From NCBI GenBank assembly GCA_009914755.4, contig CP086569.2:19968001-20032000 (forward strand): DNA of 64,000 bases, given 5' to 3'. Source of the stretch: the human T2T-CHM13v2.0 reference genome, Homo sapiens. The notes below the pieces were generated by a model that was given only the letters and a program-made list of their open reading frames with translations, ran no database searches and was not told the DNA's origin. Below are positions 14,645 through 62,400 of this stretch, piece after piece. Both the position numbers and the translations under genes were made by a program. How positions within the stretch are numbered: the stretch's first letter is position 1; each line of letters starts with the position of its first letter.

Positions 14645-14708
14645 TTCCGGCTGGGATCCCGGCAGCTGCCTGCTCTCATTCCAGAAGAGCAATAATAATA
14701 GGAACGCT

Positions 14709-15020: not shown

Positions 15021-15109
15021 AATACTACTACTAATAATAATAGGGACGCTGAGAATAACAACTACGACCAGAACCGAACAGCGAAGGCGCCCCTGTTGTG
15101 TGTTAGAAG

Positions 15110-18436: not shown

Positions 18437-19196
18437 CTGGAGAGACAGGACTAGCTGGATTTTCTAGGCCAACTAAGAATCCCTAAGCCTAGCTGGGAAG
18501 GTGACTACATCCACCTTTAAACATGGGGCTGGCAACTTAGCTCACACCCAACCAATAAGGTAGTAAAGAGAGCTCACTAAAATGCTAATTAGGCAAAAAC
18601 AGGAGGTAAAGAAATAGCCAATCATCTATTGCCTGAGAGCACAGAGGAAGGGACAATGATCGGGATATAAACCCAGGCATTCAAGCCAGCAATGGCTACC
18701 CTCTTTGGGTCCCCTCCGTTTGTATGGGAGCTCTGTTTTCATGCTATTTTAAAGTCTTGCAACTGCACACTCTTCTGATCCATGTTTGTTACAGCTTGAG
18801 CTGAGCTTTTGCTCACCATCCAGCAATGCTCTTTGCCACCATCACAGACCCGCCACTGACTTCCATCCCTCTGGATCCAGCAGGGTGTCAGCTGTGCTCT
18901 TGATCCAGTGAGGCACCTGTTGCCACTCCCAGTTGGGCTAAAGGCTCACCATTGTTCCTGCAAGGCTAAGTGCGCGGGTTTGTCTAGTTGAGCTGAACTA
19001 GTTGAGCTGGGTTCCACAGTTCTCTTCTGTGACCCATGACTTCTAATAGAGCTGTAACACTCACAGCATGGCCCGAGATTCCTACTTGGAATGCATGAGG
19101 CCAAGAACCCCAGGTCAGAGTAGAAGAGGCTCACCACCATCTTGGAAGTGGCCCCCACCATCTTGGGAGCTCTAGAAGCAAGTCCCCCTGGCAACC
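18437..19196 (+). promoter_or_regulatory. 5' LTR (LTR17-like) of the HERV-W provirus
   Basis: 93% identical over most of its length to the 3' copy at 25249-25999. TATA 'gatataaac', 'ccaccatcttggaag' repeats in U5. Confidence 0.85.
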
Positions 19197-19199
19197 TTT

Positions 19200-19217
19200 T
19201 GGCAACCACAAAGGGAC
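19200..19217 (+). other. Primer-binding site 'tggcaaccacaaagggac', 3 nt after the 5' LTR; a major splice donor 'caGTGAGT' follows at 19224-19231
   Basis: TGG-initiated 18-mer right after LTR end '..ggcaacc ttt'. Resembles a CpG-decayed TGGCGACCACGAAGGGAC. The tRNA identity is not verifiable here. Confidence 0.55.
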
Positions 19218-19699
19218 CTCCAAAGCAGTGAGTAATATTGGACCACTTTTGCTTGCTATTCTGTCCTACCCTTCCTTAGAATTGGAGGAAAATACTGGGC
19301 ACCTGTCAGGTAGTTAAAAACGTTAGCATGGTGCTGGACTTAAGACTCAGGTATGAGGCTGTCTGGGATAGAGCTTTCTAACAATCTCAACCCTTCTTGG
19401 TCGGGAGCATTGGTCTGCCTAGAACCAGCATCCTCTTTGATTATTCCTGGGGAAGCAGAGGGCTAACTAGAGGCAGAAAGCTGTCATCCCTAACTCCCAG
19501 CATTAGCTGTTTGAGATCATGGTGCAGCCAGAAGTCTCTACTCAACAGTCGCCCATGCGTGTGCCCCCACCTTTCCTTCTGATCTATACCTCCTGGGTCC
19601 TGACCATGACTTTCTTGAAAGTGTAGCCCCAAAATTCTCCTTACTTCTGAATCTACTTCCTCCAATCCCTGCCTCCTAATTAATAATGGTTCAGACTTT

Positions 19700-21810: not shown

Positions 21811-22450
21811 GATCAGGAAGAGCAGGCGGCAAATTGAATGCCTAATGGGGCTTGCTTCCAGTGCAGTCTGCAAGGACACTTTAAAAAGATTGTCCAAATA
21901 GAAATAAGCCACCCCCTCATCCATGCCCCTTATGTCAAGGGAATCACTGGAAGGCCCGCTGCCCCAGGGGATGAAGGTTCTCTGAGTCAGAAGCCACTAA
22001 ACAGATGATCCAGCAGCAGGACTGAGGGTGCCCAGGGCAAGTGCCAGCCAATGCCATCACCCTCACAGAGCCCCAGGTATGCTTGACCATTGAGGGCCAG
22101 GAGGTTAACTGTCTCCTGGACACTGGCATGGACTTCTCAGTCTTACTCTTCTGTCCTGGACAACTGTCCTCCAGATCTGTCACTATCAGAAGGGTCCTAG
22201 TATAGCCAGTCACTAGATACTTCTCCCAGCCACTAAGTTGGGACTGGGGAACTTTACTTTCACATGCTTTTCTAATTATACCTGAAAGCCCCACTCCCTT
22301 ATTAGGGAGAGACATTCTAGCAGAAGCAGGGGTCATTATACACCTGAACATAGGAGAAGGAACACCTGTTTGTTTCCACCTGCATGAGGAAGGAATTAAT
22401 CCTGAAGTCTGATCAACAGAAGGACAATATGGATGAGCAAAGAATGCCTG
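21810..22450 (+). pseudogene. Protease region remnant (active-site LLDTG motif, sense frame broken)
   Basis: Sense translation around 22081-22140 gives '...NCLLDTGMDFSVL...'. No long sense ORF. Confidence 0.55.
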
Positions 22451-38639: not shown

Positions 38640-38847
38640 AAGGGTTCTCAGTATGTGACTATCATTCCTTGCTTCTCTTCCTTTCTTCTTTAGCTCCTCC
38701 TTCTTCCCTCCTCCTCTTATTCCCCCTACCTCCATGTTTTCATTCTTTTTCTCCTTCTCTTCCTCCTCCTTCTGCTTGGGTTTTTTTCTTTTCTTTCTCC
38801 TCCTTCTCCTTCTCTTTCTAATTTTTTATTCCTTTTCTCCTCCTCTT
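38640..38847. repeat. CT-rich (polypyrimidine) low-complexity tract flanking the left (3') end of the ERV9-like provirus
   Basis: 'tcctttcttctttagctcctccttcttccctcctcctctt...ctccttctcttcctcctccttctg...'. Confidence 0.8.
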
Positions 38848-39330
38848 TGTGTCTGGAGTTCATTCCTTCTGGTGGGTTTGTGGTCTTGTTGACTTCAAGA
38901 ATGGAGTAGCAGAACTTCATGGTGAGTGTAACAGCTCTTAAAGATAACATAGAACCAAAGGGTGAGCAGCAGCAAGTTTTATTCTGAAGAGCAAAAGAAC
39001 AAAGTTTCCATAGCAAGGAAGGGGGCCTGAGTGGGTTGCCGCTGCTGAGTGGGGTAGCCAGCCTTTATTCCCTTATTTGTCCCCAACCATGTCCTGCTGA
39101 TTGGTCCATTTAACAGGCTGCTCATTGGTCTATTTTATAAACCTCTAGCTAGCTACAGAGCACTGATTGGTGCATTTTACAAATCTCTAGCTAGCTACAG
39201 AGCACTGATTGGTGGATTTTGCATTCCTAGCTACAGGGTGATAATTAGTGCATTTTGCAAACCTCTTGTAAGACAGAAAATTTCTCCAAGTCACCACCCA
39301 ACCCAGAAGTCCAGCTGACTTCACCTCTCA
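38848..39330 (-). promoter_or_regulatory. 3' LTR (LTR12-like) of the ERV9-like provirus
   Basis: The reverse complement reads U3 start 'tgagaggtgaagtcagctgg', CCAAT tandem units, 'aataaaa', '..cttgaagtcaacaagaccacaaacccaccagaaggaatgaactccagacaca'. Confidence 0.7.
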
Positions 39331-39736
39331 ATACCCCCTCTAAACAGGACACACCAAATGCTGTTGGGAATTGGGTGATGATGGCTCTATCTACTTCCTG
39401 TTGGATAGGGGTGAAGAAGGGGTCCTGGAGTTTTAGTGTCCTTCAGAGGGGAACTCTTTAGGCCAGTCAAAGGGCCAGTGGCTCTGTCCAGGGGTCCTCA
39501 ATAGAAGTTGTTAGTTGAGTTCATTTGAGGTTCCATTTGTAAGAGCATCTGTAGCTTGATGGCCTTCATCTTACAGGAAACAAATTTGACAAGGAGGTTA
39601 GAAATACAGGTCCCAAAGGCGAGTAATATTAAGATGGCTGTCAGGGGGTCTAGAAAGGGGAGAAGCCATATCACTCAACTCTAGACATTGTCTGATTTCG
39701 AAGACTTTTCCAGTAAATGCCGAGCAGTGTTTCATA

Positions 39737-40114
39737 CTATCCCTGACTACTTAGTGTAAAACAACAACAACAACAGCAACAAAAACAAAAACAAAAACAA
39801 AAACAAAAAAACTCTTCTCCTAAGCAGGTGTAAAGTCCTCCTTTCTCATCTTTCTCATCAGTGGAGATGTCTAGAACCCAGCGGTTTGGGAGAGTCACTG
39901 CTAGCAAAGATTCTGTTTGGGAATGTAGAGTAAGGATAGATTTTGTTATTTCTTGCAAACTGTCTGGGAAATCCTTTGAGAGAGTGTGGTAGTAGCATAA
40001 TGAAGTAGACAAACTGGCTGTTCTGGTTCCTGTAGTCATAGCCATTCCTAACCCTATAAGTAAGGGTACTAGTTGTATGGCTCTGCCCTGACAGACTTTA
40101 GCTTTGAGGGACAC
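39737..40114 (-). pseudogene. env transmembrane-subunit remnant with a fusion-peptide-like segment and an immunosuppressive-domain-like motif
   Basis: ORF 'MSLKAKVCQGRAIQLVPLLIGLGMAMTTGTRTASLSTSLCYYHTLSKDFPDSLQEITKSILTLHSQTESLLAVTLPNRWVLDISTDEKDEKGGLYTCLGEEFFCFC...'. Gammaretroviral TM pattern '..LQNRRGLDLLTAEKGGLC.FLGEECC'. The ORF ends in a (GCA/AAC)n-derived run. Confidence 0.65.
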
Positions 40115-42359
40115 TGATAGGGTCTGATTTTCTGGGGCAATGTTAATGTCGGGACTTAGGAAGACTAAGGTGCAGGTGCCTGTCCAGTTGGTGGGGAGGC
40201 AGATAAATGTTGAAGTTCCACATAAGAAGAATGTGTTCTATTTCCCCATTGGAAAAACAAACAAACAAACAAACAAACAAACATTTTGTATCTACTAGGA
40301 ACAATTTGAGAGAGTGATTGAAAGAGGGGAGAAGAAGGCATCCATTAGTGGTGAGGATGGTGCTGCAGGGAGTCCAGAGGTGAATGGTCATGCAGGGAGT
40401 ATGGTTGCCATTACAAAACCTAAACTGTTTGCTAAGCAGGGAAGAGGTGATAATTTTTGGAGGCTGTGTTGACAAGCCGTCTGAATGGAGCTGTTTGTGT
40501 GACTCGGAAGTTACTATGATCAGTTGGGGCTTGAAGTTGTGGGGTGTAATTACACTGATGGGGAGGTAGGTACCCCAGGGGCAGGCCTGATAACAGGTTG
40601 TGTTGGATGCGTAAAGGGTCTTGGGAAGTTAAGATGGTTTTCGCAGTTACAGTGCCATGTATTGGCTTTTCATTGCTTATGTATTGGGTGAGATTGGAAA
40701 TGTAAGAACATAAAAGTTGGATTGTGCGTCATATTAGGGTATTCTTGGTCCTATCAGAGATGGTGAAGTTGGGTAATGGTTACATATTTAGAAGTGAGAA
40801 ACGATCTCTTCCTTCATAATGAGGTTGGTAGATTAAGTTAGTAGAGACCTAATTTTTTTGCGGGAATGAGAGTTGCAACGCAAGCAGTGGTAGGTAGAGA
40901 GATACATAGCCAACAGTGGTTTGCCAGAGAAGGATTGGACTGGTTTAACAGAGTTTGGGTTAAGTTGAGAGTCTTGTAGAGTTAATTAGAAGCTAGTGGA
41001 AGGGGAGGGGTGACTGTGTGGGGTATCCCAGGAAGCAGGAATGATAGATAGGCATAGAGTAATTAGGAAGGTTAAGAGGGTGCTTTGAAGATGAGATCAT
41101 TTTATCCAGTCTGAGTTAAAAGTAGGAGTAAATTGCTGTCAGAAGGAAGGATGATAGAAAGGAGGTTGATGTGGTTAGGATATTTATCCCTGCAGGAGCT
41201 ACAGTATATAGCCCTATTGCAAAGAGTATGGTTAGTATGCTGCTTAATGTGATGAAACAGTAAAAGAATTCCATTAAAAGGGCAAGGAGAGGTGTTAAAA
41301 ATTATGTAGATTTTCACTTACCTTTTTAAGTAGGAAGGGATTTTTCCTCAGGATCAGCTGTAAGAGTCTTCTTAGTCTGGGATGTTTCCTTCCAGAAAAG
41401 AAGATGTAAGTCCTCCAATGGCTCACAGGTGTATCTAGCCTACTCTTGCTGATCCTTGGATTCCTGAGCTGTTTGTCCAGCAGGTTCCTTAGCAGGTGTC
41501 CAAAGTTTAAGTGGGGTGTGGTGAATCCAAGACTTCACTCCTGCCACCTTAACTGCAGTGGGGGTAGAGAGGATTACTGAGTATTGTTCTCTCCACAAAA
41601 AATCATAGATGGGGAGTTAGAGGGGAGGAATTTGACAAACACTAGATTTCCCAGTTAAAACAGCTCTGTTCCCTTTTCTCTGTAACATCCTTCATGTATG
41701 TTTTTAAGGTTTCATTGATATTTTGCCAAATAAGTTATATCCTTCATCAAGTTGGCCATTTCCTGATAAAGTAGGAGGTCATTTGTGAGAAAAGGTTATC
41801 CATACAGCATTTCATAGGAACTGAGCCCCATTTTGTGAGGAGAATTTCAGATTCTCAACAAGGCCATGGGCAAGAGAGTAGGCCATGGGAGATGAGTTTC
41901 TTGTGTTAGTTTCCTTAAGTGCCTCTTGAGTGTTTCATTTACCTTCTCCACCTTCCCTGAGGATTGTGGTCTCCAGGTGCAGTGAAGGTGATGCAGATAT
42001 CACCAGCGCCCTGGAAATTCCCTGAGTTATCATGGCTTTAAAAGCCAGACAACTGACACTTTGAAAGCTTTAGGGAATCCCAAATCTAGGAATTATTTCA
42101 TGAATTAAAAGTTTAACCACTTCCATACCAACAAGTATTTAAATTCCTTTGATTTAGGCATATAGGTGAAGCCTAACAGCCAGTCCTCTCTGGGATAGTG
42201 AGCTATTCTTTGTTCTCCCAGGAGGGCCTTAGAATGGACCAAGGGATTATTCCTTTGGCACTTCTCACAGACTTTGACTACTTGTTGTTTGGTCTGGAGG
42301 AAATTTGCCCTGTAAATAGGGATTTGTTCATTTGATGAATGTTCTCAATACCCATATGA

Positions 42360-43933
42360 AAAGTTTTGTGTAGGGTTTTAAGTATTTTCCACTGGTTGGT
42401 TTTGGGTATGAGTACCCTTCCCTCTTCTGTTGCTAACCACCCTGAGGGGAGAAAACTGTGCCCCCATGAAAGTCCTCATTCTGTTTCTGTCAGGGAATAC
42501 TGGGGATTAATCTCAAGGAGAGGTTTTTCCCATAACAAGGGTCCTTCTATAGGTATTTCTAGTGGGAGATTCTGCCTGGCAGAAAATTTGGCCTCAGCAG
42601 CTGCCCAAAGATTTTCTTCTACCTTTTCTCCTTCACCTTTTTGATGGTTTGGGCAGAGTAAGACTGCAACCTCCTTGGGTTTTTGAACTTGGTGCAATAA
42701 CTCCATGATTTCTTTGTGGTATTTAATTGGGTTTCCCCTAGAGGTTAGGAACTCCCTTTCTTTCCATATTGCAGTGTGGGCATGTAGGATTAGATAAGCA
42801 TACTTGCAATATGTATACACATTTATTCTTTTTCCCTTTTCCAATTTGAAGTCTCTAGTAAGTGTTACTACTTCTGCTAACTGAGCTGTGGTTCCTGGGG
42901 TAATAGACTTACCTTCAAGTAGTGTTACATCATTAACTATGGCATAACCTGCCCTTCATATCCCATTCTCCATAAATGAACTTCCATCAGTATATAGGTT
43001 AAGGTCAAGATTAGCTAAGGGGAATCCTAAGGTATCCTCTTAGACAGCATAAATCTGGACTATAATTTGTTTGCAGTCATGCTCAATTGGTTCTCCATCT
43101 TCTGGGAGAAAAATCGCAGGATTGAGTGTCACAATCATGTGTATTTGAAGCAACAGTCCCTTGAAGAATGATGCCTGGTATCTATGCAGGCAGTAGTCTG
43201 ATAGCCATAAACTTCCTTTGGCACCTAGTATGCAATTTACATCATGAGTAATCCAAACGGTAAGATCCTTTTCTTCTATTATTTTGACAGCCTCTGATAC
43301 TAAGATGGCCATTGCTGGACCCTCCCATAAACAGAGTTGGCAAAAGCTGGTGATTTCAAGGAACCCCCACAACTGGTTTAATGTCTTATGGAGAGGATAA
43401 GCCAGTATAGGCTGTATTCATTCCTTTCAGGGGCCCTAGTTTCTCCGGGTAAGATTAGGCCTAGATATTTGACTTGTTGTAGGCAGAGCTTGTCCTTCAA
43501 TTTAGACACCTTGTAGCTTTGATTAGATAGAAAGTTCAAGATATCTACAGTAGCCTGCTGGCATGAGGCTTCCAAACTGGGAGCCAAAAGTAAGTCTTCC
43601 ACATAATGAAGGACTAGAGTGCCTGGATTTCAGAAGTGGCCTATATCATGGGCCAGTGTCTGACCAAACAGATGAGAGCTATCTCTAAACCCTTGGGGCA
43701 AGACCATCCACGTAATTTGGGACGTGTTTTGTGGCATCCTCAAAGAAAAAGAGAAACTGGGGGTGAGAGTGTGGGGGAATACAGAAGAAGGCATCCTTGA
43801 TGTCCAGAACAGTGAACCATTCTTCTTCCTCTTGTATTTGAGAGAGAAGTGTATAGGGTTGGGTGCAGCTAGATATAGAGCTAGCAAGATATAGAGGAAT
43901 TACTGTCTCATTGATGAGTCTAAGATCTTGCAC
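42360..43933 (-). pseudogene. pol remnant (RT, RNase H, integrase start) of the ERV9-like provirus
   Basis: Minus ORFs 43685-43933 '...FTVLDIKDAFFCIPPHSHPQFLFFFED', 43630-43887 '...WMVLPQGFRDSSHLFGQTLAHD', 43378-43602 'MEDLLLA...YKVSKLKDKLCLQQVKYLGLIL', 43040-43372 and 42476-42844 '...LLCPNHQKGE...' parallel the HERV-W pol ORFs at 22747-24034. Confidence 0.75.
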
Positions 43934-43989
43934 TACTCCCCACTGATGTTTGGTTTTTGTATTCCTAGAATTGGGGTGTTGCAGGTACT

Positions 43990-46000
43990 GCTGCTTTTTC
44001 TTACTAAGATTTGAGTTTTTAAATGTCTAACAATATCCCGTAATCCTTTATGAGCTTCAGGCCTTAAGGGATTTTGCTTTTGATTAGGAAAAGTGGCACT
44101 GTCTCTTAGCCTGATTTTGCCTGGGTGGGTATTTTTTGCCCTTCCAAATTGTTCTTCCTATGCCCAGACTTCAGGTTTGGTTCCCTCCTCAAGTAGGGGA
44201 CAAAAAATTAGTAACTTGTTCCCCATATTCACACAGATAATAGCTCCAGCTTTGACTAAAATGTCCCTCCCTAATAAGGTTGTGTGGCTTTCTGGGATAA
44301 CAAGAAAGGCATATGAAAGGACGAATGTCTCTCAGTTACAACTGAAGAGGTGGGAGAAATACCTGGTTACAGGCTGTTCCAGGATTCCTCAGATGATAGT
44401 GGAATTTGAGGACATGTTTCTGGGTCAGAAGATTATCACTGAGAAGGCAGCACCAGTGTCCAAGAGGAAGTCAATTTCCTGGTCTTCAATAGTTAAATAT
44501 ACCTGGGGCTCAGTGAGGGTGATGGCAGGAGATGGCATTCACCCCAGGCACCTTCAGTCCTATTGTTGGATCATCTTGTTGGGGGTTTCTGGCCCAGAGA
44601 ACCTTTGCCATCTGGGGCAGTGCACCTTCCAGTGATTGCCTCAGCATAGTGGACATGGGCTAGGGGGCGGCTTGTTTCTTGATGGACAATCTTTTTAAAA
44701 GTCTCCTTGCAAACCACACTGATAACAAGAGCCACCAGGTGATTGGCCCGCTCCATTTTCTACCCTGTCTGAACTACCAAGGCTTGTTTGTCTGAGGGCC
44801 ATGACTAAGACTGAGGCCTATCTCTGATTTCATGTTTCTTTTTGGCCTGTTCCTCTTGGTCCCTATTATAGAACACTGAGCTTGCCAGGTTTAATAATGC
44901 CTCCAGATTTGTTCAGGCCCCAGGGCTGGTTTTTGGAGCTTTCTCCTGATGTCTGTTACTGATTGGGTAATAAACTTATCTTTTAGGATCATTTGACCCT
45001 GAAGTGAGTTGGGTGACAGAGTAGTATACTTTCTTAAGGCCTCCTGTATTTGCTTGAGGAAGGTGGAAGGATTTTCTTCCTCTGTTTGAGTTATGGTGGA
45101 TATCATTGAATAACTCATGGGCTTTTCCCTAATACTCTTTAGTCTTATATTTTCTTTTGTTCTATAAGAATTAGCCCTAATTCTCTTGAGTTCTATAAGA
45201 AAACAGGTTAAGAAATGTTTGTGACTCCAGTCCCCATGATCTGAGCTGAGTTCACAGTGGGATCCATACTGGGGACAGCTTGCTGACAGGTAGGGAATTT
45301 TTGCCTTCCTTCAGCTGTCATTTCATCATTTACTTGATTAAAATACCAGGTATCTCCAAACTCGGGCTACAGCTAAAGCCACATTTGTTTCATTAAATGA
45401 TAGGGTTTGATCTCACAATAGCCTGACATCTCTACAAGTTAGGTAGAACTTTAGACCCTGTAGAAAATCAATATACCTATCAGGATTATCTAAACACTTC
45501 CCCAGGTCTACCTTGATCTGCTTTAAATCAGAGAGGAAGAAGGGGATATATACCCTGATTGGGCCAAATTCCCCTCCCTCTACAGCTTGAAGGGGACATA
45601 ACTGATAATCCAGGGGTTTTTGTGTTCCGTTGGAGATTCCTTTGCTTGTTTTCTTCTGGGTGGGGGAGATTAGAGGAGTCTTATCATTAATAGGAAGTGG
45701 AGCTATAGAAAGTCTAGGACATGGAGGTAAGCTGAGAGGTCCTCCTGTAAGTTGTAAATTGCAAGCTTTGCATAATTGTAGATTATCCTTCAATGAAAAG
45801 AAAACTTGGACATAAAGTATTTAACTCCCTTTGCCTTCCCTCTTACAGAAAAGGTCAAGCTGCAGAAAATTTTGTAATTTATGCTTTTCTCGTATGGCCA
45901 TATTCTCCATCAGAGAGAGATTATTGGGGCCATCACATAGTGCAGAAAAAAAAAGAGCTGCTTCTTTTTCAGGGTTTGGGGGCCAGATTCTTCCCATAGG
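43990..46000 (-). pseudogene. pro and gag remnants of the ERV9-like provirus
   Basis: Minus ORFs 44891-45118 'MSYSMISTITQTEEENPSTFLKQIQEALRKYTTLSPNSLQGQMILKDKFITQSVTDIRRKLQK' and 45413-45793 '...PLQAVEGGEFGPIRVYIPFFLSDLKQIKVDLGK...' are gag capsid-like and paralogous to the HERV-W gag at 21396-21806. Confidence 0.65.
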
Positions 46001-46089
46001 CTTAGGATACATTTCAAGGGTGAGCCTGTTGATGCCTGGGTGTTTTCCATCTGATAGAAAAAACTGCCAGTGGTTTGGGTTTGTTGTTC

Positions 46090-46420
46090 TACACCCCCCC
46101 ACACACACACACCCAAGAACCCACAATTGTCTCTGGACCCTACTGATCAGAATAGTTGCACTCACCGATGCAGCAGCAGATCCCCCTCTTGCCCAAGAAC
46201 CCGCAATGGTTCCTGCATCCTGCCGATCGGTATAGTTGTGCTCACCGTAACAGCAGCAGAAACACTAGTTTTCCTCCTAGAACACAAAGAGGACCGAGCA
46301 AGGTCAGATTTAGTGGCTCTTACTGACACATATTCAAAAACCTGCACTTTTGCTTTTTCTCTTAGAACACAAAGAGGACCAAGAAAAATCAGGTTTAGTG
46401 GCCCTTACTGAAGCATTCTT
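46090..46420. repeat. Two pairs of ~80-bp tandem duplications inside the ERV9-like leader
   Basis: 'cccaagaacccacaattgtctctggaccctactgatcagaatagttgcactcaccgatgcagcagcagatccccctcttg' and 'cccaagaacccgcaatggttcctgcatcctgccgatcggtatagttgtgctcaccgtaacagcagcagaaacac', then 'tagaacacaaagaggaccgagcaaggtcagatttagtggctcttactgac...' twice. Confidence 0.7.
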
Positions 46421-47265
46421 AAAAACCTGTTAGAGTTCTAAGCATTTTCTTCTGTCAGTATTGGGACCTTATCCCGTCCTATAAAGATGTTATGCCTCAA
46501 AAACGGAGTGGATGGCCATACCCTGAAGGAGGGAAGAGATCTCTAGGGTTGGAAGAATGATATCTTTTGTCCTAACTTCTCATCATATGAATAGGAAGGA
46601 AAAAAATTCTGAGGCTACCCATATCCTAGCTTCAGGAATAGACTTTTCAGGCCAGCTAGTCTGAAGAGGGATCCTAAAATTCCAGATAATCCCCCAAACC
46701 CCAGTGGGGCTTTGGGCAAAAATTATGTATTTCTGTTTGTTGAGACTGGGTACCTAAAGAAAGAAACAGAGTCCCGAAATTTGTACTAGAAATTTTTCTT
46801 ACAATAGAAGTTGGAAAATCACCAGAGAGAGAGAGAAATTATTTTAATTAATTAATTAATTAATTAATTTACTTACTTTTATTTTTTATTATACTTTAAG
46901 TTCTAGAGTACATGTTCATAACGTGAAAGTTTGTTACGTATGTATACATGTGCCATGTTGATGTGCTGCACCCATTAACTTGTCATTTACATTAAGTATA
47001 TCTGCTAATGTTATCCCTCTCCCTTCCTCCACCCCACAGCAGGCCCCAGTGTGTGATGTTCCCCTTCCTGTGTCCATGTGTTCTCATTGTTCAATTCCAA
47101 CCTATGAGTGAGAACATGCGGTGTTTGGTTTTTTGTCCTTGTGATAGTTTGCTGAGAATGATGGTTCCTGGCTTCATCCATGTCCCTACAAAGGACATGA
47201 ACTCATCATTTTTTATGACTGCATAGTATTCCATGGTTTATGGTATTTATGTGCCACATTTTCTT

Positions 47266-47407
47266 TTTCTTTTTCTTTTTTAAATAAATAGTTCCTTATT
47301 ACCTAGGTAGATTTCTGTAATCTGAGGTAGATTTCATTAATTTCATGTTATTGTGGGAAGGATCCTTGAATGATGACCTTTTATTATTTATCTTTTTATG
47401 CCTCTGA
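47266..47407 (-). other. Candidate L1 3' transduction: ~125 bp of unique sequence between the L1 (AATTT)n tail and a second poly(A) run
   Basis: On the + strand: T-run 'tttctttttctttttctttttt' (47266-47281), unique 'aaataaatagttccttattacctaggtagatttctgtaatctgaggtagatttcattaatttcatg...gcctctgaagg', then 'atttaatttaatttaatt' and the L1 3' end. Confidence 0.5.
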
Positions 47408-53564
<6,157 letters not shown>

Positions 53565-55637
53565 CATGCCCCATTTTCTTAATGCAGTCTATCATTGATA
53601 GACATTTGGGTTGGTTCCAAGTCTATGTGATTGTGACTAGTGCCTCAATAAATATACGTGTGCATGTGTCTTTATAGCAGCACGATTTATAATCCTTTGG
53701 GTATATAACCAGTAATGGGATGGCTGAGTCAAATGGTATTTCCAGTTCTAGATCCCTGAGGAATCACCTCAGTGACTTCCACAAGGGCTGAACTAGTTTA
53801 CAGTCCCACCAACAGTGTAAAGGTGTTCCTATTTCTCCACACCCTCTCCAGAACCTGCTGTTTCCTGACTTTTTAATGATCGCCATTCTCACTGGTGTGA
53901 TATGGAATCTCATTGTGGTTTTGATTTGTATTTCTCTGATGGCCAGTGATGATGAACATTTATTCATGTGTCTGTTGGCTGCATAAATGTCTTCTTTTGA
54001 GAAATGTCTGTTCATGTCTTTCGGGAAGTTTTGATGGGTTTGTTAGTTTTTTTCTTGTAAATTTGTTTGAGTTCTTTGAAGACTCTGGATATTAGCCCTT
54101 TGTCAGATGAGTAAATTGCAAAACTTTTTTCCCATCCTATAGGTTGCCTCTTCACTCTGATGGTAGTTTCTTTTGCTGTGCAAAAGCTCTTTAGTTTAGT
54201 TAGATCTCATTTGTCAATTTTTGCTTTTGTTGCCATTGCTTTTGGTGTTTTAGACATGAAGATCTTGCTCTTTCCTATGTCCTGAGTGGGATTGCCTAGG
54301 TGTTCTTCTAGGGTTTTTATGGTTTTAGGTTTAACGTTTAAGTCTTTAATCCATCTTGAATTAATTTTTATAAGGTGTAAAGAAAGGATCCAGTTTCAGC
54401 TTTCTACATATGGCTAGCCAGTTTTCCCATCACCATTTATTAAATAGGGAATCATTTCCCCATTTCTTGTTTTTGTCAGGTTTGTCAAAGATCAGATGGT
54501 TATAGATGTGTGTTATTATGTCTGAGGACTCTATTATGTTCCATTTGTCTATATCTCTGTTTTGGTACCAGTACCATGCTGTTTTGGTTACTGTAGCTTT
54601 GTAGTATAGTTTGAAGTCAGGTAGTGAGATGCCTCCAGCTTTGTTCTTTTCAATTAGGATTGACTTGGCATTGTGGGCTGTTTTTTTGGTTCCATATGAA
54701 CTTTAAAGTAGTTTTTCCCAATTCTGTGAAGAAAGTCATTGGTAGCTTGATGAAGATGACATTAACTCTATAAATTACTTTGGGCAGTGTGGTTATTTTC
54801 ACTATATTTGCTCTTCCTATCCATGAGCATGGAACGTTCTTCCATTGCTTGTATCATCTTTTATTTCATTGAGCAGTGGTTTGTAGTTCTCCTTGGAGAG
54901 GTCCTTCACATCCCTTGTAAGTTGAATTCCTAGGTATTTTATTCTCTTTGAAGCAATTGTGAATGGGAGTTCATTAATTATTTGGCTCTCTGTTTGTCTG
55001 TTATTGGTGTATAAGAATGCTTGTGATTTTTGCACACTGATTTTGTAACCTGAGACTTTGTTGAAGTTGCCTATCAGCTTAAGGAGATTTTGGGCTGAGA
55101 TGATGTGGTTTTCTAGATATACAATCATGTCATCTGCAAACAGGGACAACTTGACTTCCACTTTTCCTAATTGAATACCCTTTATTTCTTTCTCCTGCCT
55201 GATTGCCTTGCCCAGAACTTCCAACACTATGGTGAATAAGAGTGGTGAAAGTGGGCATCCTTGTCTTGTGCCATTTTTAAAAGGGAATGCTCCAGTTTTT
55301 GCCTGTGTATGGTATTGGCTGTGAGTTTGTTATAAATATCTCTTATTATTTTGGGATACAGCCTATCAATACCTAATTTATTGAGAGTTTTTAGCATGAA
55401 GTCATGTTAAATTTTGTCAAAGGCCTTTTCTGCATCTATTGAGATAATCATGTGGTTTTTGTCTTTGGTTCTGTTTATATGCTGGATTACATTTATTGAT
55501 TTGTGTGTGTTGAGCCAGCCTTGCATCCTAATGTTGAAGCCCACTTAATGATGTTGGATAAGCTTTATGATATGTTGCTGGATTCAGTTTGAAAAAGTTT
55601 TATTGAGGATTGTTACATTGATGTTCATCATGGATCA

Positions 55638-55796
<159 letters not shown>

Positions 55797-58700
55797 TCAG
55801 ATTTGAATGCCTCTGGTACTGCACTTTTTTTTGGTTTGTAAGCTATTAATTATTTCCTCAATTTCAGAGTCTGCTATTGATCTATTCCTAGACTCAACTT
55901 CTTCCTGGTTTAGTCTTGGGAGGGTGTATGTGTCCAGGAATTTATCCATTTCTTATAGATTTTCTAGTTTATTTCTGAAGAGGTGTTTTTAGTATTCTCT
56001 GATGGTAGTTTCTTTTTCTGTGGGATAGGAGGTGATATCCCCTTTGTTATTTTGTATGGTATCTGTTTGATTCTTCTCTCTTTCCTTCTTTATTAGTCTT
56101 GCTAGTGGTCTATCAATTTTGTTGATCTTTTCAGAAAACCAGCTCCTGGATTCATTGATTTTTTGAAGGATTTTTTGTGTCTCTATCTCCTTCAGTTCTC
56201 CTCTGATGTTAGTTATTTCTTTCTTTCCGCTAGCTTTTGAATGTGTTTACTCTTGCTTCTCTAGTTCTTTTGATTGAGATCTTAGGGTTTCAATTTTAGA
56301 TCTTTCCTGCTTTCTCTTGTAGGCTTTTAGTGCTATAAATTTCCCTCTACACACTGCTTTAAATGTGTACCAGACATTCTGGTGTGTTGTGCCTTTGTTC
56401 TCACTGATTTCAAATAACATCTTTATTTCTGCCTTCAATTCATTATGTACCCAGCAGTCATTCAGAAGCAAGTTGTTCAGTTTCCATGTAGTTCAGCGGG
56501 TTTGAGTGAGATTCTTAATGCTGAGTTCTATTTTGATTGAACTACAGTCTGAGAGACAGTTTGTTGTGATTTCTGTTCTTTTACATTTGCTGAGGAGTTC
56601 TTTACTTCCAACTCTGTGGTCAATTTTGGAATAAGTGCGATGTGGTGCTGAGAAGAATGTATAATCTGTTGATTTGGGTTGGAGAGTCCTGTAGATGTCT
56701 ATTCGGTCTGCTTGGTGCAGAACTGAGTTCAATTCCTGGATATCGTTTTTAGCTTTCTGTCTTGTTGATCTGTCTAATGTTGACTGTGAGGTGTTAAAGT
56801 CTCTCATTATTATTGTGTGGATGTCTAAGTCTCCGTGTTGGTCTCTAAAGACTTCCTTTTTGAATCTGGGTGCTCCTGTATTGGGTGCATATATATTTAG
56901 GATAGTTCCTCTTCTTGTTGAATTGATCCCTTTACCATTATGTATTGACCTTCTTTGTCTCTTTTGATCTTTATTAATTTAAAATTTGTTTTATCAGAGA
57001 CTAGGATTGCAACCCCTGCCTTTTATGTTTTCCATTTTGTAAAGTATTTTATTTATCTATCAGTTATGAAGCTTAGTTTGGCTGGATATGAAATTCTGGG
57101 TTGAGAATTCTTTTCTGTAAGAATGTTAATATTGGTCCCCACTCTCTTCTGGCTTGTAGAGTTTCTGCGGAGACATCTGTTAGTGTGATTGGCTTCCCTT
57201 TGTGAGTAACATGACCTTTCTCTCTGGCTGCCTTTAACAATTTTTCCTGCATTTCAACTTTGGTGAATCTGACAATTATGTGTCTTGGAGTTGCTCTTCT
57301 CAAGGAGTATCTTTGTGGTGTTCTGTGTATTTCCTGTATTTGAATGTTGGCCTGCATTGCTAGGTTGGGGAAGTTCTCCTGAATAATATCCTGAAGAGTG
57401 TTTTCCAACTTGGTTCCTTTCTCCCCATCACTTTCATGTACACCAATCAGACATAGATTTGATCTTTTCACATAGTCCCATATTTCTTGGAGGCTTGGTT
57501 CATTTATTTTTACTCTTTTTTCTCTAACTTCTCTTCTCACTTCATTTCATTCATTTGATCTTCACTCACTGATACACTTTCTTCCAGTTGATCAAATCAG
57601 CTACTGAAGCTTGTGCATTCCTCAGGTAGTTCTCATACCATGGTTTTCAGCTCCATCAGGTCATTTAAAGACTTCTCTACAGTGGTTATTATAGTTAGGC
57701 ATTCATCTCATCGTTTTTCAAGGTTTTTAGCTTCTTTGCTATCGGTTCAGACTTCCTCCTTTAGCTCAGAGAAGTTTGATCGTCTGAAGCCTTCTTCTCT
57801 CAACTCATCAAAGTCATTCTCCATCCAGCTTCATTCTGCCTCTGGTGAGGAGCTGTGTTCCTTTGGAGGGGAAGAGGCACTCAGATTTTTAGAATTTTCA
57901 GTTTTTCTGTTCCTTTTTTCCCCATCTTGGTGGTTTTATCTACATTTGGTCTTTGATGATGGTAACGTACAGATGGGGTTTTGGTGTGGATGTGCTTTCT
58001 GTTTGTTAATTTTCCTTCTAGCAGTCAGGACCCTCTGCTGAAGGTCTGTTGGAGTTTGCTGGAGGTCCACTCCAGACCCTGTTTCCCGAGGTATGAACAG
58101 CAGAGGCTGCAGAGTAGTGAATGTTGCTGAAGAGCAAATGTTGCTGCCTAATCATTCCTCTGGAAGTTTCATCTCAGAGGGGTACCTGGCCGTGTGAAAT
58201 GTCAGTCTGCCCTATTTTGGTGCTGTCTCCCAGTTAGGCTACTCAGGGGTCAGGGACTCACTTGAGGCAGTCTGTCCATTCTCAGATCTCAAATTCCATG
58301 CTGGGAGAACCACTACTCTCTTCAAAACTGTCAGAAAGGGACATTTAAGTCTGCAAAGATTTCTGCTGCCTTTTGTTTAGCTATGCCTTGCCCTCAGAAG
58401 TGGAGTCTACAGATGCAGCCAGGCCTCCTTGAGCTGCAGTGGGCTCCACTCAGTTTGAGCTTCCCAGCTGCTTTGTTTACCTACTCAAGCCTCAGCAATG
58501 GTGGTCACACCTCTCCCAGACTCATTGCCATCTTGTAGTTTGGTTTCAAATACTCTGCTAGCTATGATTGAGTTTCTGTGGGTATGAGACCCTCTGTGCC
58601 AGGAGTGGGTTATAATCTCCTAGTGTGCCATTTGCTAAGACCATTAGAAATGTGCAGTATTAGGGTGGTAGTGACCCAATTTTCCAGGTGCCATCTGTCA

Positions 58701-59409
58701 CAGCTTCGCTTGGCTAGGAAAGGGAATTCCTTGACCTCTTGCACTTCCTGGGTGAGGCAATGCCTTGCCATGCTTTGGCTGATACTTGATGTGCTGCACC
58801 CACTGTTCTGCACCCACTGTCCAACAAGCCCCAGTGAGATGAACTTGGTACTTCAGTTGGAAATGCAGAAATCACATGTCTTCTGCATCAATAATGCTGG
58901 GAGCTGTAGACTGGAGTTTTTCCTATTTGGCCATCATCAGGAATGGTTTTTACAAGTGGGATTAGCCTCAGAGATGGGAGATGGAAGGAAATTAATCTTA
59001 CAGGCATTAGAACCCAGGAGGCAAGGGTCAGGATTGATAGGATAGATAAGCAAGTCTCACTTGGTTAACATGATTTTAAGAGTTCTCCTCATGTCTGCAG
59101 GGTCAACCAACTTATTCTCTGGACCCTGCAGCTGAATGGCTTTCCTATCTGACAACCCTCAGTTCAGCTCAGGAGTACAGAAAAATTGGAAGCTGGTTTC
59201 AGGCAAACCAATGCTCCCAACTCTGAAGAATAGGGGGTTCTTAGAGAGATCTTTCCCAGAAAGCCTTACACCCATGTCTTTAGTCCGGTTGCCATGCTAG
59301 TCACTTTTAATTGGCTGACAGGTGCCTGGCATTTAGCTCACAAATTCTAAGGAAAAATAGGACACAATAGTAAGTAAAAGGGGTCTGATGGTACTCACCA
59401 TATGGGGCT

Positions 59410-59427
59410 ATCCCTGGTGAGCCCCCA
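59410..59427 (-). other. Primer-binding site of the ERV9-like provirus, closest to the tRNA-Pro PBS (15/18); a splice donor 'tgGTGAGT' follows
   Basis: Reverse complement reads '...ctcagaacaca tc tTGGGGGCTCACCAGGGAT agcccca tatggtgagtacc'. Compare the canonical Pro PBS TGGGGGCTCGTCCGGGAT. Confidence 0.55.
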
Positions 59428-59430
59428 AGA

Positions 59431-60174
59431 TGTGTTCTGAGTTTTTTTTATTTCTGGTGTGTTTGTGTCCTCACTGACTTCAAGAATGGAACCATGGACC
59501 TTTGCAGCGATTGTTACAGCTCTTAAAGATGGCACAAATGCAGTTGGGCATGGTGGCTCATGCCTGTAATCCCAGCACTTTGGGAGGCTGTGGTAGGTGG
59601 ATCACAATATCAGGAGATCAAGACCATCCTGGTTAACATGGTGAAATCCTGTCTCTATTAAAAATACAAAAAATTAGCCAGGCATGGTGGTGGGCACCTG
59701 TAATCCCAGCTTCTCAGGAGGCTGAGGAAGGAGAATGGCGTCAACCCAGGAGGCAGAGCTTGCAGTGAGCCAAGATAACACCACTGCACACCATCCAGCC
59801 TGGGTGACAGAACGAGACTCCATTAAAAAAAATTACACAAACACAAAGAAGGAGCATCAGGAAGATTTATTGTGAATAGAAAAAGAACAAAGCTTCCATA
59901 GCATGGAAAGGAAGCAAAGTGGATTGCCACTGCTGGCTGGGGTGGCTAGATTTTATTCCCTTATTTGTCCCTGCCCATGTCCTGCTGATTGGTCCATTTT
60001 ACAGAGCACTGACTGGTGAATTTTACAAACCTCTAGCTAGCTACAGAGTACTGACTGGTGTGTTTTACAATCCTAGCTGCAGACTTCTGATTGGGGCATT
60101 TTACAATCCTCTTTTAAGACAAAAATTCTCCAAGTCCCAACCCAACCCAGAAGTCCAACTGGCTCCACTGCTCA
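59431..60174 (-). promoter_or_regulatory. 5' LTR (LTR12-like) of the ERV9-like provirus, carrying an Alu insertion at 59545-59830 (+ strand)
   Basis: Same structure as 38848-39330 ('gacttcaagaatgga..', 'gaacaaagcttccatagcatgg', 'cctgctgattggtccattttacagagcactgactggtg..', 'ttctccaagtcccaacccaacccagaagtcca'). The Alu is 'ttgggcatggtggctcatgcctgtaatcccagcactttgggaggctg ... gagactccattaaaaaaaa'. Confidence 0.7.
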
Positions 60175-60440
60175 CTATTTCTCTTATTTTTTCTTCTATA
60201 TCTCCTCCTGCTCCTCCTCCTTCTTCTCTGTTTCCTTCTCCTCCTCTTTCTCCTATTCTTCCTTGTCTTTCTCCTCCTCCTCTTTGTTTCCTCCTCCTTC
60301 TTTGTTTCCTCCTCTTTCATCTCCTTTTCCCTCCTCGTCTGCCTCCTCTCCTCCTTCTTCTTTCTCTCTGCCTTTCTCTTACTTCCTTTGTTCTTTTTTC
60401 CTTCCCACCTTCCTTCCCTTCCTTGTTTCTTTCTTCCTTC
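60175..60440. repeat. CT-rich polypyrimidine low-complexity tract flanking the right (5') end of the ERV9-like provirus
   Basis: 'tctcctcctgctcctcctccttcttctctgtttccttctcctcctctttctcc...'. Confidence 0.8.
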
Positions 60441-61830: not shown

Positions 61831-61939
61831 TTTGAGCATTGATTGGCATAATCATTGCACAACCTTGTTGTTCACACAACACTAACTTACGGTTGTGAAT
61901 GCACTAAATGCCATCAAACTCCACACTTTATTTTATTTT

Positions 61940-62400
61940 ATTATTTATTATTATTGTTATTGTACTTTAAGTTCTGGAGTACAAGTGCAGAAAATGCAGG
62001 TTTGTTACATATGCATACGTGTGGCATGGTGGTTTACTGAATCCATCAATCCATTGTCTACATTAGGTATTTCTCCTAATGCTATCCCTCTCCTAGCCTG
62101 AAAACTCCTGACAGGCCCTGGTGTGTGATATTCTGCTCCCTGTGCCTATGTGTTCTCTTTATTGAACTCCCACTTATGAGTGTGAACATGCGCTGTTTTG
62201 TTTTCTGTTCCTGCGTTAGTTTGCTGAGAGTGATGATTTCCAGTTTCATCCATGTCCCTGCAAAGGATATGAACTCGTCCTTTTTATATGGCTGCATAGT
62301 ATTCCTTATTGTATATGTGCCATGTTTTCTTTATCCAGTCTATCATTAATGGGCATTTGGGTTGGTTCCAAGTTTTTGCTATTGAGAAGAGCAAATTGTA
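61940..62400 (-). mobile_element. L1 3'-end fragment (L1PA/PB-like), reverse orientation
   Basis: 'tactttaagttctggagtacaagtgcagaaaatgcaggtttgttacatatgcatacgtgtggcatggtgg...ctcccacttatgagtgtgaacatgcgctgttttgttttctgttcctgcgttagtttgctgagagtgatgatttccagtttcatccatgtccctgcaaaggatatgaac...tatccagtctatcattaatgggcatttgggttggttccaag'. Confidence 0.85.

What the first reader, a model, noticed from the sequence alone, without database searches (positions are those of the whole stretch)
38848..60174. 21-kb ERV9-like provirus (LTR12-type LTRs) carrying three successive nested retrotransposon insertions
Direct LTRs at 38848-39330 and 59431-60174 (minus orientation) bracket env, pol, pro, gag and leader sequences in the right order. 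Two L1 insertions totalling ~12.1 kb (46845-58938) sit in the leader, and an Alu sits in the 5' LTR. This gives the insertion order ERV, then the older L1, then the younger L1. LTR12 elements are documented to act as promoters and enhancers (the ERV9 U3 CCAAT/GATA repeat enhancer), so the two LTR12 copies here are plausible regulatory elements. The leader is clearly homologous to the HERV-W leader 20 kb upstream, so two sister-family proviruses sit side by side in opposite orientations.
Basis: partly seen in the sequence, partly recalled or inferred. Interest (0 to 1): 0.6.

Follow-up and report, generated by a model that had tools for sequence, protein, structure and literature searches.

The report
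Old ERV9 provirus with nested L1s
This is an ordinary, long-dead primate endogenous retrovirus of the ERV9/LTR12 family that was later split by two LINE-1 elements, one inside the other, and an Alu; it is a textbook transposon nest, not a new kind of element.

Summary
Two direct repeats on the minus strand, 38848-39330 and 59431-60174, are a TG...CA LTR pair, 20% diverged once the Alu is removed. They bracket a PBS, leader, gag, pro, pol, env and a polypurine tract (PPT) in the correct order.

Published HERV consensus sequences (Vargiu et al. 2016) give a reciprocal classification. This provirus is HERV9: pro-pol is 84% identical to HERV9 against 71% to HERV-W, the env surface subunit (SU) matches only HERV9, and the LTRs match LTR12. 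The plus-strand provirus at about 18438-25999 is HERV-W/LTR17.

A full-length L1 sits in the leader with a 9-bp target-site duplication (TSD). A second full-length, younger L1 sits inside it with a 14-bp TSD matching at 13 of 14 positions, and carries about 125 bp of probable 3' transduced sequence. An Alu sits antisense in the 5' LTR.

- The PBS is tRNA-Pro-like rather than Arg. This variant is already recorded among HERV9 proviruses.
- The LTRs are short (483 bp, LTR12F-sized).
- The GATA and MZF1 enhancer motifs are absent, and CCAAT boxes are partly lost. Regulatory activity is therefore untested and less likely than for young LTR12C copies.
- The Alu is an independent insertion, not a third level of nesting.

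All genes are riddled with stops. Interest is low.

The parts
38848..39330 (-). 3' LTR (483 bp), LTR12-type, TG...CA termini
   Evidence: Sequence read. Pairs with the 5' LTR. Matches the LTR12 portions of the HERV9 consensus at 76-81%.
39124..39220 (-). U3 tandem repeats, 42-bp unit, 2.3 copies, each with a CCAAT box
   Evidence: TRF, period 42, 90% matches. CCAAT at LTR positions 119, 161, 203 and 227.
39331..39342 (-). Polypurine tract (..TTAGAGGGGGTAT) abutting the 3' LTR
   Evidence: Sequence read. Same motif as the HERV9 consensus ..TTTAGAGGGGGGAT|TGAGAGGTGA.
39393..41086 (-). env remnant (SU and TM). Has an approx. 50-aa gap in the SU alignment and (AAAACA)n/(AAAC)n microsatellites at 39758-39809 and 40255-40283. 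Many stops.
   Evidence: Pfam TLV_coat 1.4e-22. tblastn to HERV9 env aa 18-626 at 54-79%, against 34-53% to HERV-W env in the TM region only. TRF.
41322..44070 (-). pol remnant (RT, RNase H, IN) with an approx. 334-bp internal deletion at about 43333
   Evidence: Pfam RVT_1, RNase_H and MLVIN_C. tblastn to HERV9 pol aa 2-1132 with aa 246-359 missing. blastn shows consensus nt 1264-1598 missing.
43966..44619 (-). protease remnant
   Evidence: tblastn to HERV9 pro, 69% over 229 aa. Weak RVP hit.
44443..46050 (-). gag remnant
   Evidence: Pfam Gag_p30. tblastn identities: HERV9 gag 58-73%, HERV-W 50-62%, HERV30 42-61%.
46051..46835 (-). 3' part of the leader (pre-gag region), including 80-85-bp tandem duplications at 46112-46429
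   Evidence: blastn to the HERV9 consensus leader, 78-80% over 46543-46015. TRF.
46836..46844 (-). 3' copy of the outer-L1 target-site duplication (AAAATAATT)
   Evidence: Sequence read. The partner AAAACCATT is at 58942-58950. The HERV9 consensus is continuous across this point.
46845..47265 (-). Outer (older) L1, 3' piece with its (TTAA)n/A-rich tail. Its upstream end, 47252-47265, is the 3' copy of the inner-L1 TSD (AAGAAAATGTGGCA).
   Evidence: Homologous to the inner L1 3' end (46864-47265 vs 47413-47809, 82%). Sequence read.
47266..53566 (-). Inner (younger) full-length L1. The body is 53566-47411. The first A-rich tail is 47411-47440. About 125 bp of unique non-L1 sequence lies at 47286-47410, followed by a second A-rich tail at 47266-47281. 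This is a probable 3' transduction.
   Evidence: 5' end matches the L1 5' UTR start. Pfam ORF1, EN and RT domains. The extra segment has no other copy in the window. Sequence read.
53567..58941 (-). Outer (older) L1, 5' piece (5' UTR, ORF1, ORF2). Has a 378-bp deletion spanning the ORF1 end and ORF2 start. 53567-53580 is the 5' copy of the inner-L1 TSD (AAGAAAATGGGGCA).
   Evidence: Self-blast 47796-51269 vs 53567-57038 at 87%, and 51647-53561 vs 57038-58935 at 81%. Pfam ORF1, EN and RT domains, with the ORF1 dsRBD truncated. Sequence read.
58942..59430 (-). 5' part of the leader. Includes the PBS TGGGGGCTCACCAGGGAT at 59410-59427 and a GTGAGT splice-donor-like site.
   Evidence: Sequence read. 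blastn to the HERV9 consensus leader, 81% over 449 bp, against 78% over 217 bp for HERV-W.
59431..60174 (-). 5' LTR (441 bp of LTR plus the Alu insertion). Lacks one 42-bp U3 repeat unit relative to the 3' LTR.
   Evidence: Sequence read. Global alignment of the two LTRs: 439 aligned sites, 20.3% different, K2P 0.24.
59543..59832 (+). Alu, dimeric with an A8 tail, antisense to the ERV, inserted about 25 bp downstream of the LTR poly(A) signal. TSD CACAAATGCA / CACAAACACA at 59533-59542 and 59836-59845.
   Evidence: Sequence read. Matches other Alus in the window at 78-85%. Closest to my remembered AluY/Sc-type consensus, 14% diverged.

Best explanation
A gammaretrovirus-like ERV9 (HERV9/LTR12 family) provirus integrated in minus orientation into a purine-rich (GGA/GAA)n tract tens of millions of years ago. 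It has since decayed into a non-coding fossil.

A full-length L1 of the primate L1PA lineage then retrotransposed into its pre-gag leader. A younger full-length L1PA retrotransposed into the 3' end of ORF2 of that first L1, bringing about 125 bp of 3' flanking sequence from its source locus. Separately, an Alu inserted antisense into the R/U5 part of the 5' LTR. All three insertions carry the marks of L1-endonuclease target-primed reverse transcription: A-rich tails, TSDs of 9-14 bp, and TT|AAAA-like target sites.

Shown: the anatomy, family assignment, colinearity and nesting order. Inferred: absolute ages, L1 and Alu subfamilies, and the 3' transduction. The element has no coding capacity. 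Any present function could only be cis-regulatory through the LTRs, and that is untested.
For: LTR pair and exact termini.

Domain order gag-pro-pol-env on the minus strand.

Family assignment, using published consensus sequences from Vargiu et al. 2016 (PMC4724089, Additional file 3):
- Pro-pol DNA is 84.4% identical to HERV9 and 70.8% to HERV-W. The neighbouring provirus gives the reverse, 72.7% and 91.4%.
- gag identity ranks HERV9 above HERV-W above HERV30. The env SU matches only HERV9.
- The LTR and leader match HERV9/LTR12. LTR30 gives no hit.
- The 42-bp CCAAT-bearing U3 repeats fit the approx. 41-nt repeats described for LTR12 (PMC11853044).

PPT and PBS lie in the expected places.

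Both flanks are the same kind of polypurine low-complexity DNA.

L1 nesting:
- The outer L1 is interrupted at ...AAGAAAATGGGGCA and resumes at AAGAAAATGTGGCA.
- The inner L1 starts at the canonical 5' UTR start.
- Both copies have ORF1, EN and RT domains.
- The HERV9 consensus leader is continuous across the outer-L1 site.
Against: - The PBS is tRNA-Pro-like, matching the classical TGGGGGCTCGTCCGGGAT at 15 of 18 positions. It is not the Arg-type TGGCGACCACGA..GGGAC of the HERV9 consensus.
- The provirus TSD is not clean. It is AATAG against AAGAG (4 of 5), or ATAG against AAGA if 4 bp, and it lies in low-complexity DNA where chance matches are likely.
- LTR-LTR divergence of 20% is at the top of the range reported for canonical HERV9 (mean 10.3%, maximum 18.5%, file 5).
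- No Dfam or RepeatMasker library was available, so LTR12, L1PA and Alu subfamily calls are not tool-verified.
Confidence: 0.9

Rival explanations
1. The provirus is not ERV9 proper. It would belong to another lineage of the W/9 supergroup, such as HERV30 or the old 'LTR12F-HERV17-LTR12F' ERV-W-like type described by Grandi et al. 2020, or it would be a mosaic.
For: - Pro-type PBS.
- Short 483-bp LTRs of the size given for LTR12F.
- LTR12F-flanked proviruses with ERV-W-like interiors exist (PMC6995185).
- Identity to the HERV9 consensus is only 76-84% at the DNA level.
- Mosaics are common among HERV9 proviruses.
Against: - gag, pro-pol and env are each clearly closer to HERV9 than to HERV-W.
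- HERV30 gag is the most distant of the three, and LTR30 gives no hit.
- No segment switches its best match along the element.
- Canonical HERV9 proviruses with Pro-type PBS are listed in Vargiu Table S1, e.g. chr19:18688225 with tgggggctcacccaggat.
Confidence: 0.08
2. The two LTRs come from two different proviruses joined by recombination or rearrangement, so the 21-kb unit is not a single integration.
For: LTR divergence is high at 20%. The TSD is imperfect. The 5' LTR lacks a 42-bp repeat unit.
Against: - Both flanks are the same polypurine low-complexity tract.
- The LTRs share lineage-specific features against the consensus, such as GTAGCTAGCTAGAG in place of GT[GA]TCTAGCT.
- The neighbouring HERV-W LTR pair is also unusually diverged, at 14%, which suggests locally elevated divergence rather than a mismatch of LTRs.
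- Loss of a tandem repeat unit is a common slippage event.
Confidence: 0.04
3. The two L1s are a tandem duplication of one element, not a nested insertion.
For: They lie head to tail in the same orientation, with about 5.77-kb spacing.
Against: - They are only 81-87% identical, and the identity differs by region.
- The outer copy is split. Its last 405 bp and its tail lie beyond the inner copy, and a 14-bp TSD brackets the inner one.
- The inner copy is closer to a remembered L1HS sequence than the outer one: 89% and 92% against 79% and 88%.
Confidence: 0.01
4. The LTR12 copies are active promoters or enhancers, for example for the gene at the CpG island about 23 kb away.
For: LTR12 elements are documented NF-Y-dependent promoters and enhancers (PMC11853044). 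The 3' LTR keeps 4 CCAAT boxes and a poly(A) signal.
Against: - The GATA motif TCTGTATCTAGCT is replaced by TCTGTAGCTAGCT in both LTRs.
- The MZF1-like GTGGGGA motif is absent.
- The 5' LTR keeps only 2 CCAAT boxes and is split by an Alu.
- There are only 2-3 U3 repeats, against 5-17 in active LTR12 copies.
- No expression or chromatin data could be consulted.
Confidence: 0.1

Closest known systems
HERV9 / ERV9 proviruses with LTR12-family LTRs (class I, HERVW9 supergroup; Vargiu et al. 2016 taxorder 10320)
   Same: - LTRs are homologous to LTR12, with approx. 42-bp CCAAT-bearing U3 tandem repeats.
- It has a long pre-gag leader with a GTGAGT donor.
- gag-pro-pol-env is colinear with the HERV9 consensus and closest to it.
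- The HERV9-type immunosuppressive-domain remnant (..GGL.T.LGEE) is present.
- The PPT is AGAGGGGG.
   Different: - The PBS is Pro-like instead of Arg. This is a minority variant already tabulated among HERV9 proviruses.
- The LTRs are only 483 bp, with 2-3 U3 repeats and a single U5 unit.
- GATA and MZF1 motifs are absent.
- LTR divergence is 20%.
- There is a 334-bp pol deletion and a partial SU deletion.
LTR12F (shortest LTR12 subfamily, about 500 bp)
   Same: Length of 483 bp, LTR12-type sequence, and apparent old age.
   Different: No LTR12F consensus was available, so the assignment rests on size only. Some LTR12F-flanked proviruses have ERV-W-like interiors (PMC6995185), whereas this one has a HERV9-like interior.
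Nested L1PA insertions with 3' transduction (target-primed reverse transcription)
   Same: - Both L1s are full length, start at the canonical 5' UTR start, and carry ORF1, EN and RT domains.
- They have A-rich tails and TSDs of 9 and 14 bp at TT|AAAA-like sites.
- Extra unique sequence lies between two A-rich tails.
   Different: Nothing unusual. The outer copy has a 378-bp internal deletion. Subfamilies could not be called without a repeat library.
HERV-W (HERV17/LTR17) provirus, the neighbour at about 18438-25999
   Same: It is a sister family of the same supergroup. The leaders are homologous (74% over 211 bp) and pro-pol is about 71-74% identical.
   Different: The LTRs are unrelated in sequence (LTR17 against LTR12). 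It has an Arg/Trp-type PBS (TGGCAACCACAAAGGGAC), a different env, and the opposite orientation.

Membership tests
HERV9/ERV9 (LTR12) | LTRs homologous to LTR12, identical family and orientation at both ends, TG...CA termini | tested here: met
   blastn to the LTR12 portions of the published HERV9 consensus gives 76-83% for both LTRs, with no hit to LTR30 and none to LTR17. Termini read.
HERV9/ERV9 (LTR12) | U3 region with approx. 41-nt tandem repeats carrying CCAAT (NF-Y) boxes | tested here: met
   42-bp repeat, 2.3 copies. There are 4 CCAAT boxes in the 3' LTR and 2 in the 5' LTR. The copy number is below the 5-17 quoted for typical LTR12.
HERV9/ERV9 (LTR12) | GATA (TCTGTATCTAGCT) and MZF1-like (GTGGGGA) motifs in the U3 repeats. 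These are features of the enhancer, not of the family itself. | tested here: not met
   Neither motif is present in either LTR. TCTGTAGCTAGCT is found instead.
HERV9/ERV9 (LTR12) | Internal region colinear with, and closest to, the HERV9 gag-pro-pol-env consensus | tested here: met
   tblastn is colinear across all four genes. Pro-pol DNA is 84.4% identical to HERV9 against 70.8% to HERV-W. The env SU matches HERV9 only.
HERV9/ERV9 (LTR12) | PBS complementary to tRNA-Arg. This is the historical criterion. Vargiu et al. regard PBS usage as unstable. | tested here: not met
   The PBS TGGGGGCTCACCAGGGAT is Pro-like, 15 of 18. The HERV9 consensus has TGGCGACCACGA..GGGAC. Canonical HERV9 proviruses with P-type PBS are listed in Vargiu Table S1, so this feature does not decide membership.
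HERV9/ERV9 (LTR12) | Short target-site duplication flanking the provirus | tested here: inconclusive
   AATAG against AAGAG (4 of 5), in a polypurine tract where such matches are expected by chance.
LTR12F subfamily | About 500-bp LTR with subfamily-diagnostic indels | not testable with these tools
   The length of 483 bp fits. No LTR12F consensus or Dfam model was available.
L1 (primate L1PA lineage), both copies | 5' UTR homologous to L1PA/L1HS, ORF1 (Tnp_22 domains), ORF2 (EN and RT), A-rich tail, TSD | tested here: met
   Pfam domains. Junctions, tails and TSDs. 5' UTR and ORF1 are 79-92% identical to an L1HS sequence recalled from memory. That last result is a lead, not a library test.
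Alu | Approx. 280-bp dimer with A-rich linker, poly(A) tail and TSD | tested here: met
   290 bp with an A8 tail and a TSD matching at 8 of 10. Homologous to more than 15 other Alus in the window. The subfamily (AluY/Sc-like) rests only on consensus sequences recalled from memory.
HERV-W (LTR17), neighbouring provirus | LTR17 LTRs and an interior closest to the HERV-W consensus | tested here: met
   LTR plus leader is 87% identical to the HERV-W consensus. Pro-pol is 91.4% to HERV-W against 72.7% to HERV9. The env tail is 72% to HERV-W against 47% to HERV9.

The most novel reading that the evidence does not exclude
The provirus could represent an early, poorly described ERV9 lineage that predates the LTR12C/D/E expansions. 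Its features would be a Pro-type PBS, approx. 480-bp LTR12F-like LTRs with few U3 repeats and no GATA motif, and a HERV9-type env. If so, it would help reconstruct how the ERV9 enhancer repeats and primer usage evolved from the ERV-W/9 ancestor. A second possibility is that one of its LTRs has been co-opted by the gene at the nearby CpG island.
Probability: 0.1. Interest if true: 0.3.

Novelty: already known. Interest (0 to 1): 0.1.

Why it matters
It matters little beyond annotation. It is a clean teaching example of relative dating by nesting: ERV first, then the older L1, then the younger L1. It also gives one data point on PBS switching (Arg to Pro) and on short, repeat-poor LTR12 forms within ERV9. 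For gene regulation it would matter only if the LTRs show promoter or enhancer marks, and the motif decay seen here makes that less likely than for young LTR12C copies.

Tried and rejected
- A direct Pfam scan of whole frames failed because of stop codons. It was replaced by concatenated stop-free fragments.
- I considered HERV30/LTR30 as the family because of the high LTR divergence and the odd PBS. I rejected it because the LTR30 start gives no hit and HERV30 gag is the most distant of the three.
- I considered that the Pro-like PBS excludes ERV9. I rejected this because canonical HERV9 proviruses with P-type PBS are tabulated.
- I tried to locate the locus in hg19 through exact PBS strings in Vargiu Table S1. 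The ERV9 PBS is absent. The HERV-W PBS string matched only unrelated proviruses, on chr3 and chr8. The stored table is truncated, so this says nothing about species.
- Tandem duplication of the L1s was rejected from the junction sequences.
- Published consensus sequences already settled the classification.
I treat them as leads only.


Full report
**Observation**

A repeat search and blastn recover one pair of direct repeats, 38940-39324 and 59828-60168, at 80-84% identity with E about 1e-55. The window holds no further copy. The 3' LTR is 38848-39330 (483 bp) and the 5' LTR is 59431-60174 (744 bp). Both start TGAG... and end ...ACACA.

A polypurine tract (TTAGAGGGGGTAT) abuts the 3' LTR. An 18-nt primer-binding site lies 3 nt after the 5' LTR. 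The 5' LTR is longer because an Alu sits in it at 59543-59832, on the plus strand and so antisense to the ERV. The Alu has an A8 tail and a TSD of CACAAATGCA / CACAAACACA.

With the Alu and one TSD copy removed, the LTRs align over 439 sites with 20.3% differences (K2P 0.24). There is one 42-bp gap, which corresponds to one U3 repeat unit. Both outer flanks are the same kind of polypurine (GGA/GAA)n low-complexity DNA. This is what a single integration into such a tract would leave.

**Internal structure**

Pfam on stop-free minus-strand fragments of 39250-46900 gives Gag_p30, RVP (weak), RVT_1, RNase_H, MLVIN_C and TLV_coat in that order. This is a class I, gammaretrovirus-like provirus. Every frame carries about 100-145 stop codons, so nothing is coding.

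**Family assignment**

No repeat library was available. I therefore took reference sequences from Additional file 3 of Vargiu et al. 2016 (PMC4724089). These were the HERV9 and HERV-W consensus DNA and proteins, HERV30 gag, and the start of LTR30.

| Test | This provirus | Neighbouring provirus (about 18438-25999) |
|---|---|---|
| HERV9 proteins, tblastn | Colinear: gag 46050-44443, pro 44619-43966, pol 44070-41322, env 41086-39393 | – |
| gag identity | HERV9 58-73%, HERV-W 50-62%, HERV30 42-61% | HERV-W 63%, HERV9 56%, HERV30 52% |
| env | HERV9 54-79% across SU and TM; HERV-W 34-53%, TM only | C-terminal tail only: HERV-W 72%, HERV9 47% |
| pro-pol DNA | HERV9 84.4%, HERV-W 70.8% | HERV9 72.7%, HERV-W 91.4% |

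The pro-pol result is a clean reciprocal classification. The LTR12 parts of the HERV9 consensus hit both window LTRs at 76-83%. The HERV9 leader hits 59394-58978 at 81% over 449 bp, and 46543-46015 at 78-80%. LTR30 gives no hit. The HERV-W consensus LTR plus leader hits 18440-19876 and 25257-25949 at 87%.

So this provirus is HERV9/LTR12, and its plus-strand neighbour is HERV-W/LTR17. The two leaders are homologous, 74% over 211 bp. The two proviruses face each other 3' end to 3' end, 12.9 kb apart.

**Departures from a textbook ERV9**

1. *Pro-type PBS.* The PBS TGGGGGCTCACCAGGGAT matches the classical tRNA-Pro PBS TGGGGGCTCGTCCGGGAT at 15 of 18 positions. That reference sequence is established knowledge. 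Two of the three mismatches are CpG decay. The HERV9 consensus has the Arg-type TGGCGACCACGA..GGGAC. The HERV-W neighbour has TGGCAACCACAAAGGGAC. This is not new. Vargiu Table S1 lists canonical HERV9 proviruses with P-type PBS, for example chr19:18688225 with tgggggctcacccaggat. The authors also stress that PBS usage is unstable.

2. *Short LTRs.* The LTRs are 483 bp, with 2.3 copies of a 42-bp CCAAT-bearing U3 repeat and a single U5 unit. A recent review gives about 500 bp for LTR12F and 5-17 U3 repeats for typical LTR12 (PMC11853044). The size fits LTR12F, but I could not test the subfamily.

3. *High LTR divergence.* At 20%, it exceeds the canonical HERV9 range (mean 10.3%, maximum 18.5%). 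The neighbouring HERV-W LTR pair is also high, at 14%. AluS-type elements in the window are 11-16% from a remembered consensus. Locally elevated divergence may therefore inflate the age estimate. Depending on the rate used, the LTRs suggest roughly 25-55 million years.

4. *Internal damage.* About 334 bp of pol is deleted at about 43333. About 50 aa of SU is missing. Microsatellites have expanded in env.

**The L1 block (46845-58941)**

Self-alignment shows two L1 copies on the minus strand, 81-87% identical. Both have ORF1 (Tnp_22 trimerisation, RBD and dsRBD domains), endonuclease and RT domains.

The junctions settle how they are arranged:

- The outer L1 starts at about 58941 with ..GATGATGGCCAAATAGGAAAAACTCCAGTCTACAGCTCCCAGC. 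It runs to ...GACTGCATTAAGAAAATGGGGCA at 53567.
- There the inner L1 begins at its own 5' UTR start, GCAAGATGGCCGAATAGG (53566).
- The inner L1 body ends at about 47411 in a (TAAAT)n tail.
- About 125 bp of unique non-L1 sequence follows (47286-47410). It has no other copy in the window.
- A second A-rich tail follows that (47266-47281).
- The outer L1 then resumes with AAGAAAATGTGGCACATAAATACC... (from 47265). It ends in its own (TTAA)n tail at 46845.

The 14-bp TSD around the inner element matches at 13 of 14 positions. This proves nested insertion and excludes tandem duplication. Unique sequence lying between two A-rich tails is the signature of an L1 3' transduction. That reading is an inference.

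The outer L1 is flanked by AAAACCATT (58942-58950) and AAAATAATT (46836-46844). The HERV9 consensus leader reads straight through this point..TCTAAAAACCAACACTCCCTGT..CTCTGGTGCTTTTCT... The L1 is therefore a simple insertion into the pre-gag leader.

The outer copy also has a 378-bp deletion removing the end of ORF1 and the start of ORF2. Summing the pieces shows both L1s were full length, about 6.15 kb, when they inserted.

The inner copy is 89% and 92% identical. The outer copy is 79% and 88% identical. Both retain an approx. 126-132-bp 5' UTR segment that this sequence lacks. This agrees with a younger L1PA inside an older L1PA, but it is a lead and not a library-based call.

**Mechanism**

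All three secondary insertions show A-rich tails, TSDs of 9-14 bp and TT|AAAA-like target sites. These are the marks of L1-endonuclease target-primed reverse transcription. The nesting order ERV, then outer L1, then inner L1 is shown directly. The Alu is independent of the L1 nest and can be ordered only relative to the ERV.

**Regulatory claim**

LTR12 elements are documented NF-Y-dependent promoters and enhancers that assemble NF-Y/MZF1/GATA-2 on the U3 repeats. Here the 3' LTR keeps four CCAAT boxes and the 5' LTR keeps two. The GATA motif TCTGTATCTAGCT is replaced by TCTGTAGCTAGCT in both LTRs. The GTGGGGA motif is absent from both. The 5' LTR is split by the Alu just downstream of its poly(A) signal. 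No expression or chromatin data can be reached with these tools. Activity therefore remains untested, and the sequence makes it less likely than for young LTR12C copies.

**Verdict**

- The PBS is Pro-type.
- The LTR12 form is old and short.
- The structure is a two-level L1 nest plus an independent Alu, and the inner L1 carries a probable 3' transduction.
- The enhancer motifs are weakened.

Every component belongs to a well-known family and would be annotated routinely by RepeatMasker. It is a tidy transposon nest of low scientific interest.

Noticed in passing
window 14500-16500: A CpG island: GC 0.57-0.68 and CpG observed/expected 0.7-0.8, against 0.195 for the whole window. It is probably a gene promoter or first exon, about 2 kb upstream of the HERV-W 5' LTR and about 23 kb from the ERV9 3' LTR.
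   Followed up: partly
window 18438-25999 (+): A HERV-W (LTR17) provirus. Its LTR pair is 14% diverged and its PBS is TGGCAACCACAAAGGGAC. The gag N-terminal part is missing. An Alu is inserted in pol at about 22996-23272. A large deletion removes IN and most of env, so pol aa ~773 runs directly into the last 79 aa of env.
   Followed up: partly
window 47266-47410 (-): About 125 bp of unique non-L1 sequence lies between the inner L1's first A-rich tail and a second A-rich tail next to the TSD. This is probably a 3' transduction that could identify the source L1.
   Followed up: partly
window 59410-59427 (-): The PBS of the ERV9 provirus is tRNA-Pro-like (TGGGGGCTCACCAGGGAT). The HERV9 consensus and the HERV-W neighbour have the Arg/Trp type. 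Published tables list a minority of HERV9 proviruses with the same switch.
   Followed up: yes
window 52668-52794 and 58053-58185 (-): Both L1 5' UTRs contain an approx. 126-132-bp segment absent from my remembered L1HS sequence at position ~780. This is reminiscent of the 129-bp segment lost in the youngest L1PA subfamilies. The comparison is memory-based only.
   Followed up: no
window 61932-62388 (-): A third, separate L1 3'-end fragment lies just outside the provirus. It is 77-78% identical to the 3' ends of the two nested L1s.
   Followed up: no
window 46112-46429 (-): Two adjacent tandem duplications (80-bp and 85-bp units, about 1.9 copies each) lie in the ERV9 pre-gag leader. The published HERV9 consensus shows similar duplications, so they appear to be a family feature rather than a local event.
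   Followed up: partly
window 38700-38847 and 60175-60380: Both flanks of the provirus are polypurine/polypyrimidine (GGA/GAA)n-like low-complexity DNA. The ERV integrated into a simple-repeat tract, which makes its short TSD uninformative.
   Followed up: yes
window 30988-31175 and 31321-31513: A pair of direct repeats about 190 bp long and 77% identical, 333 bp apart, in the interval between the two proviruses. Not characterised.
   Followed up: no
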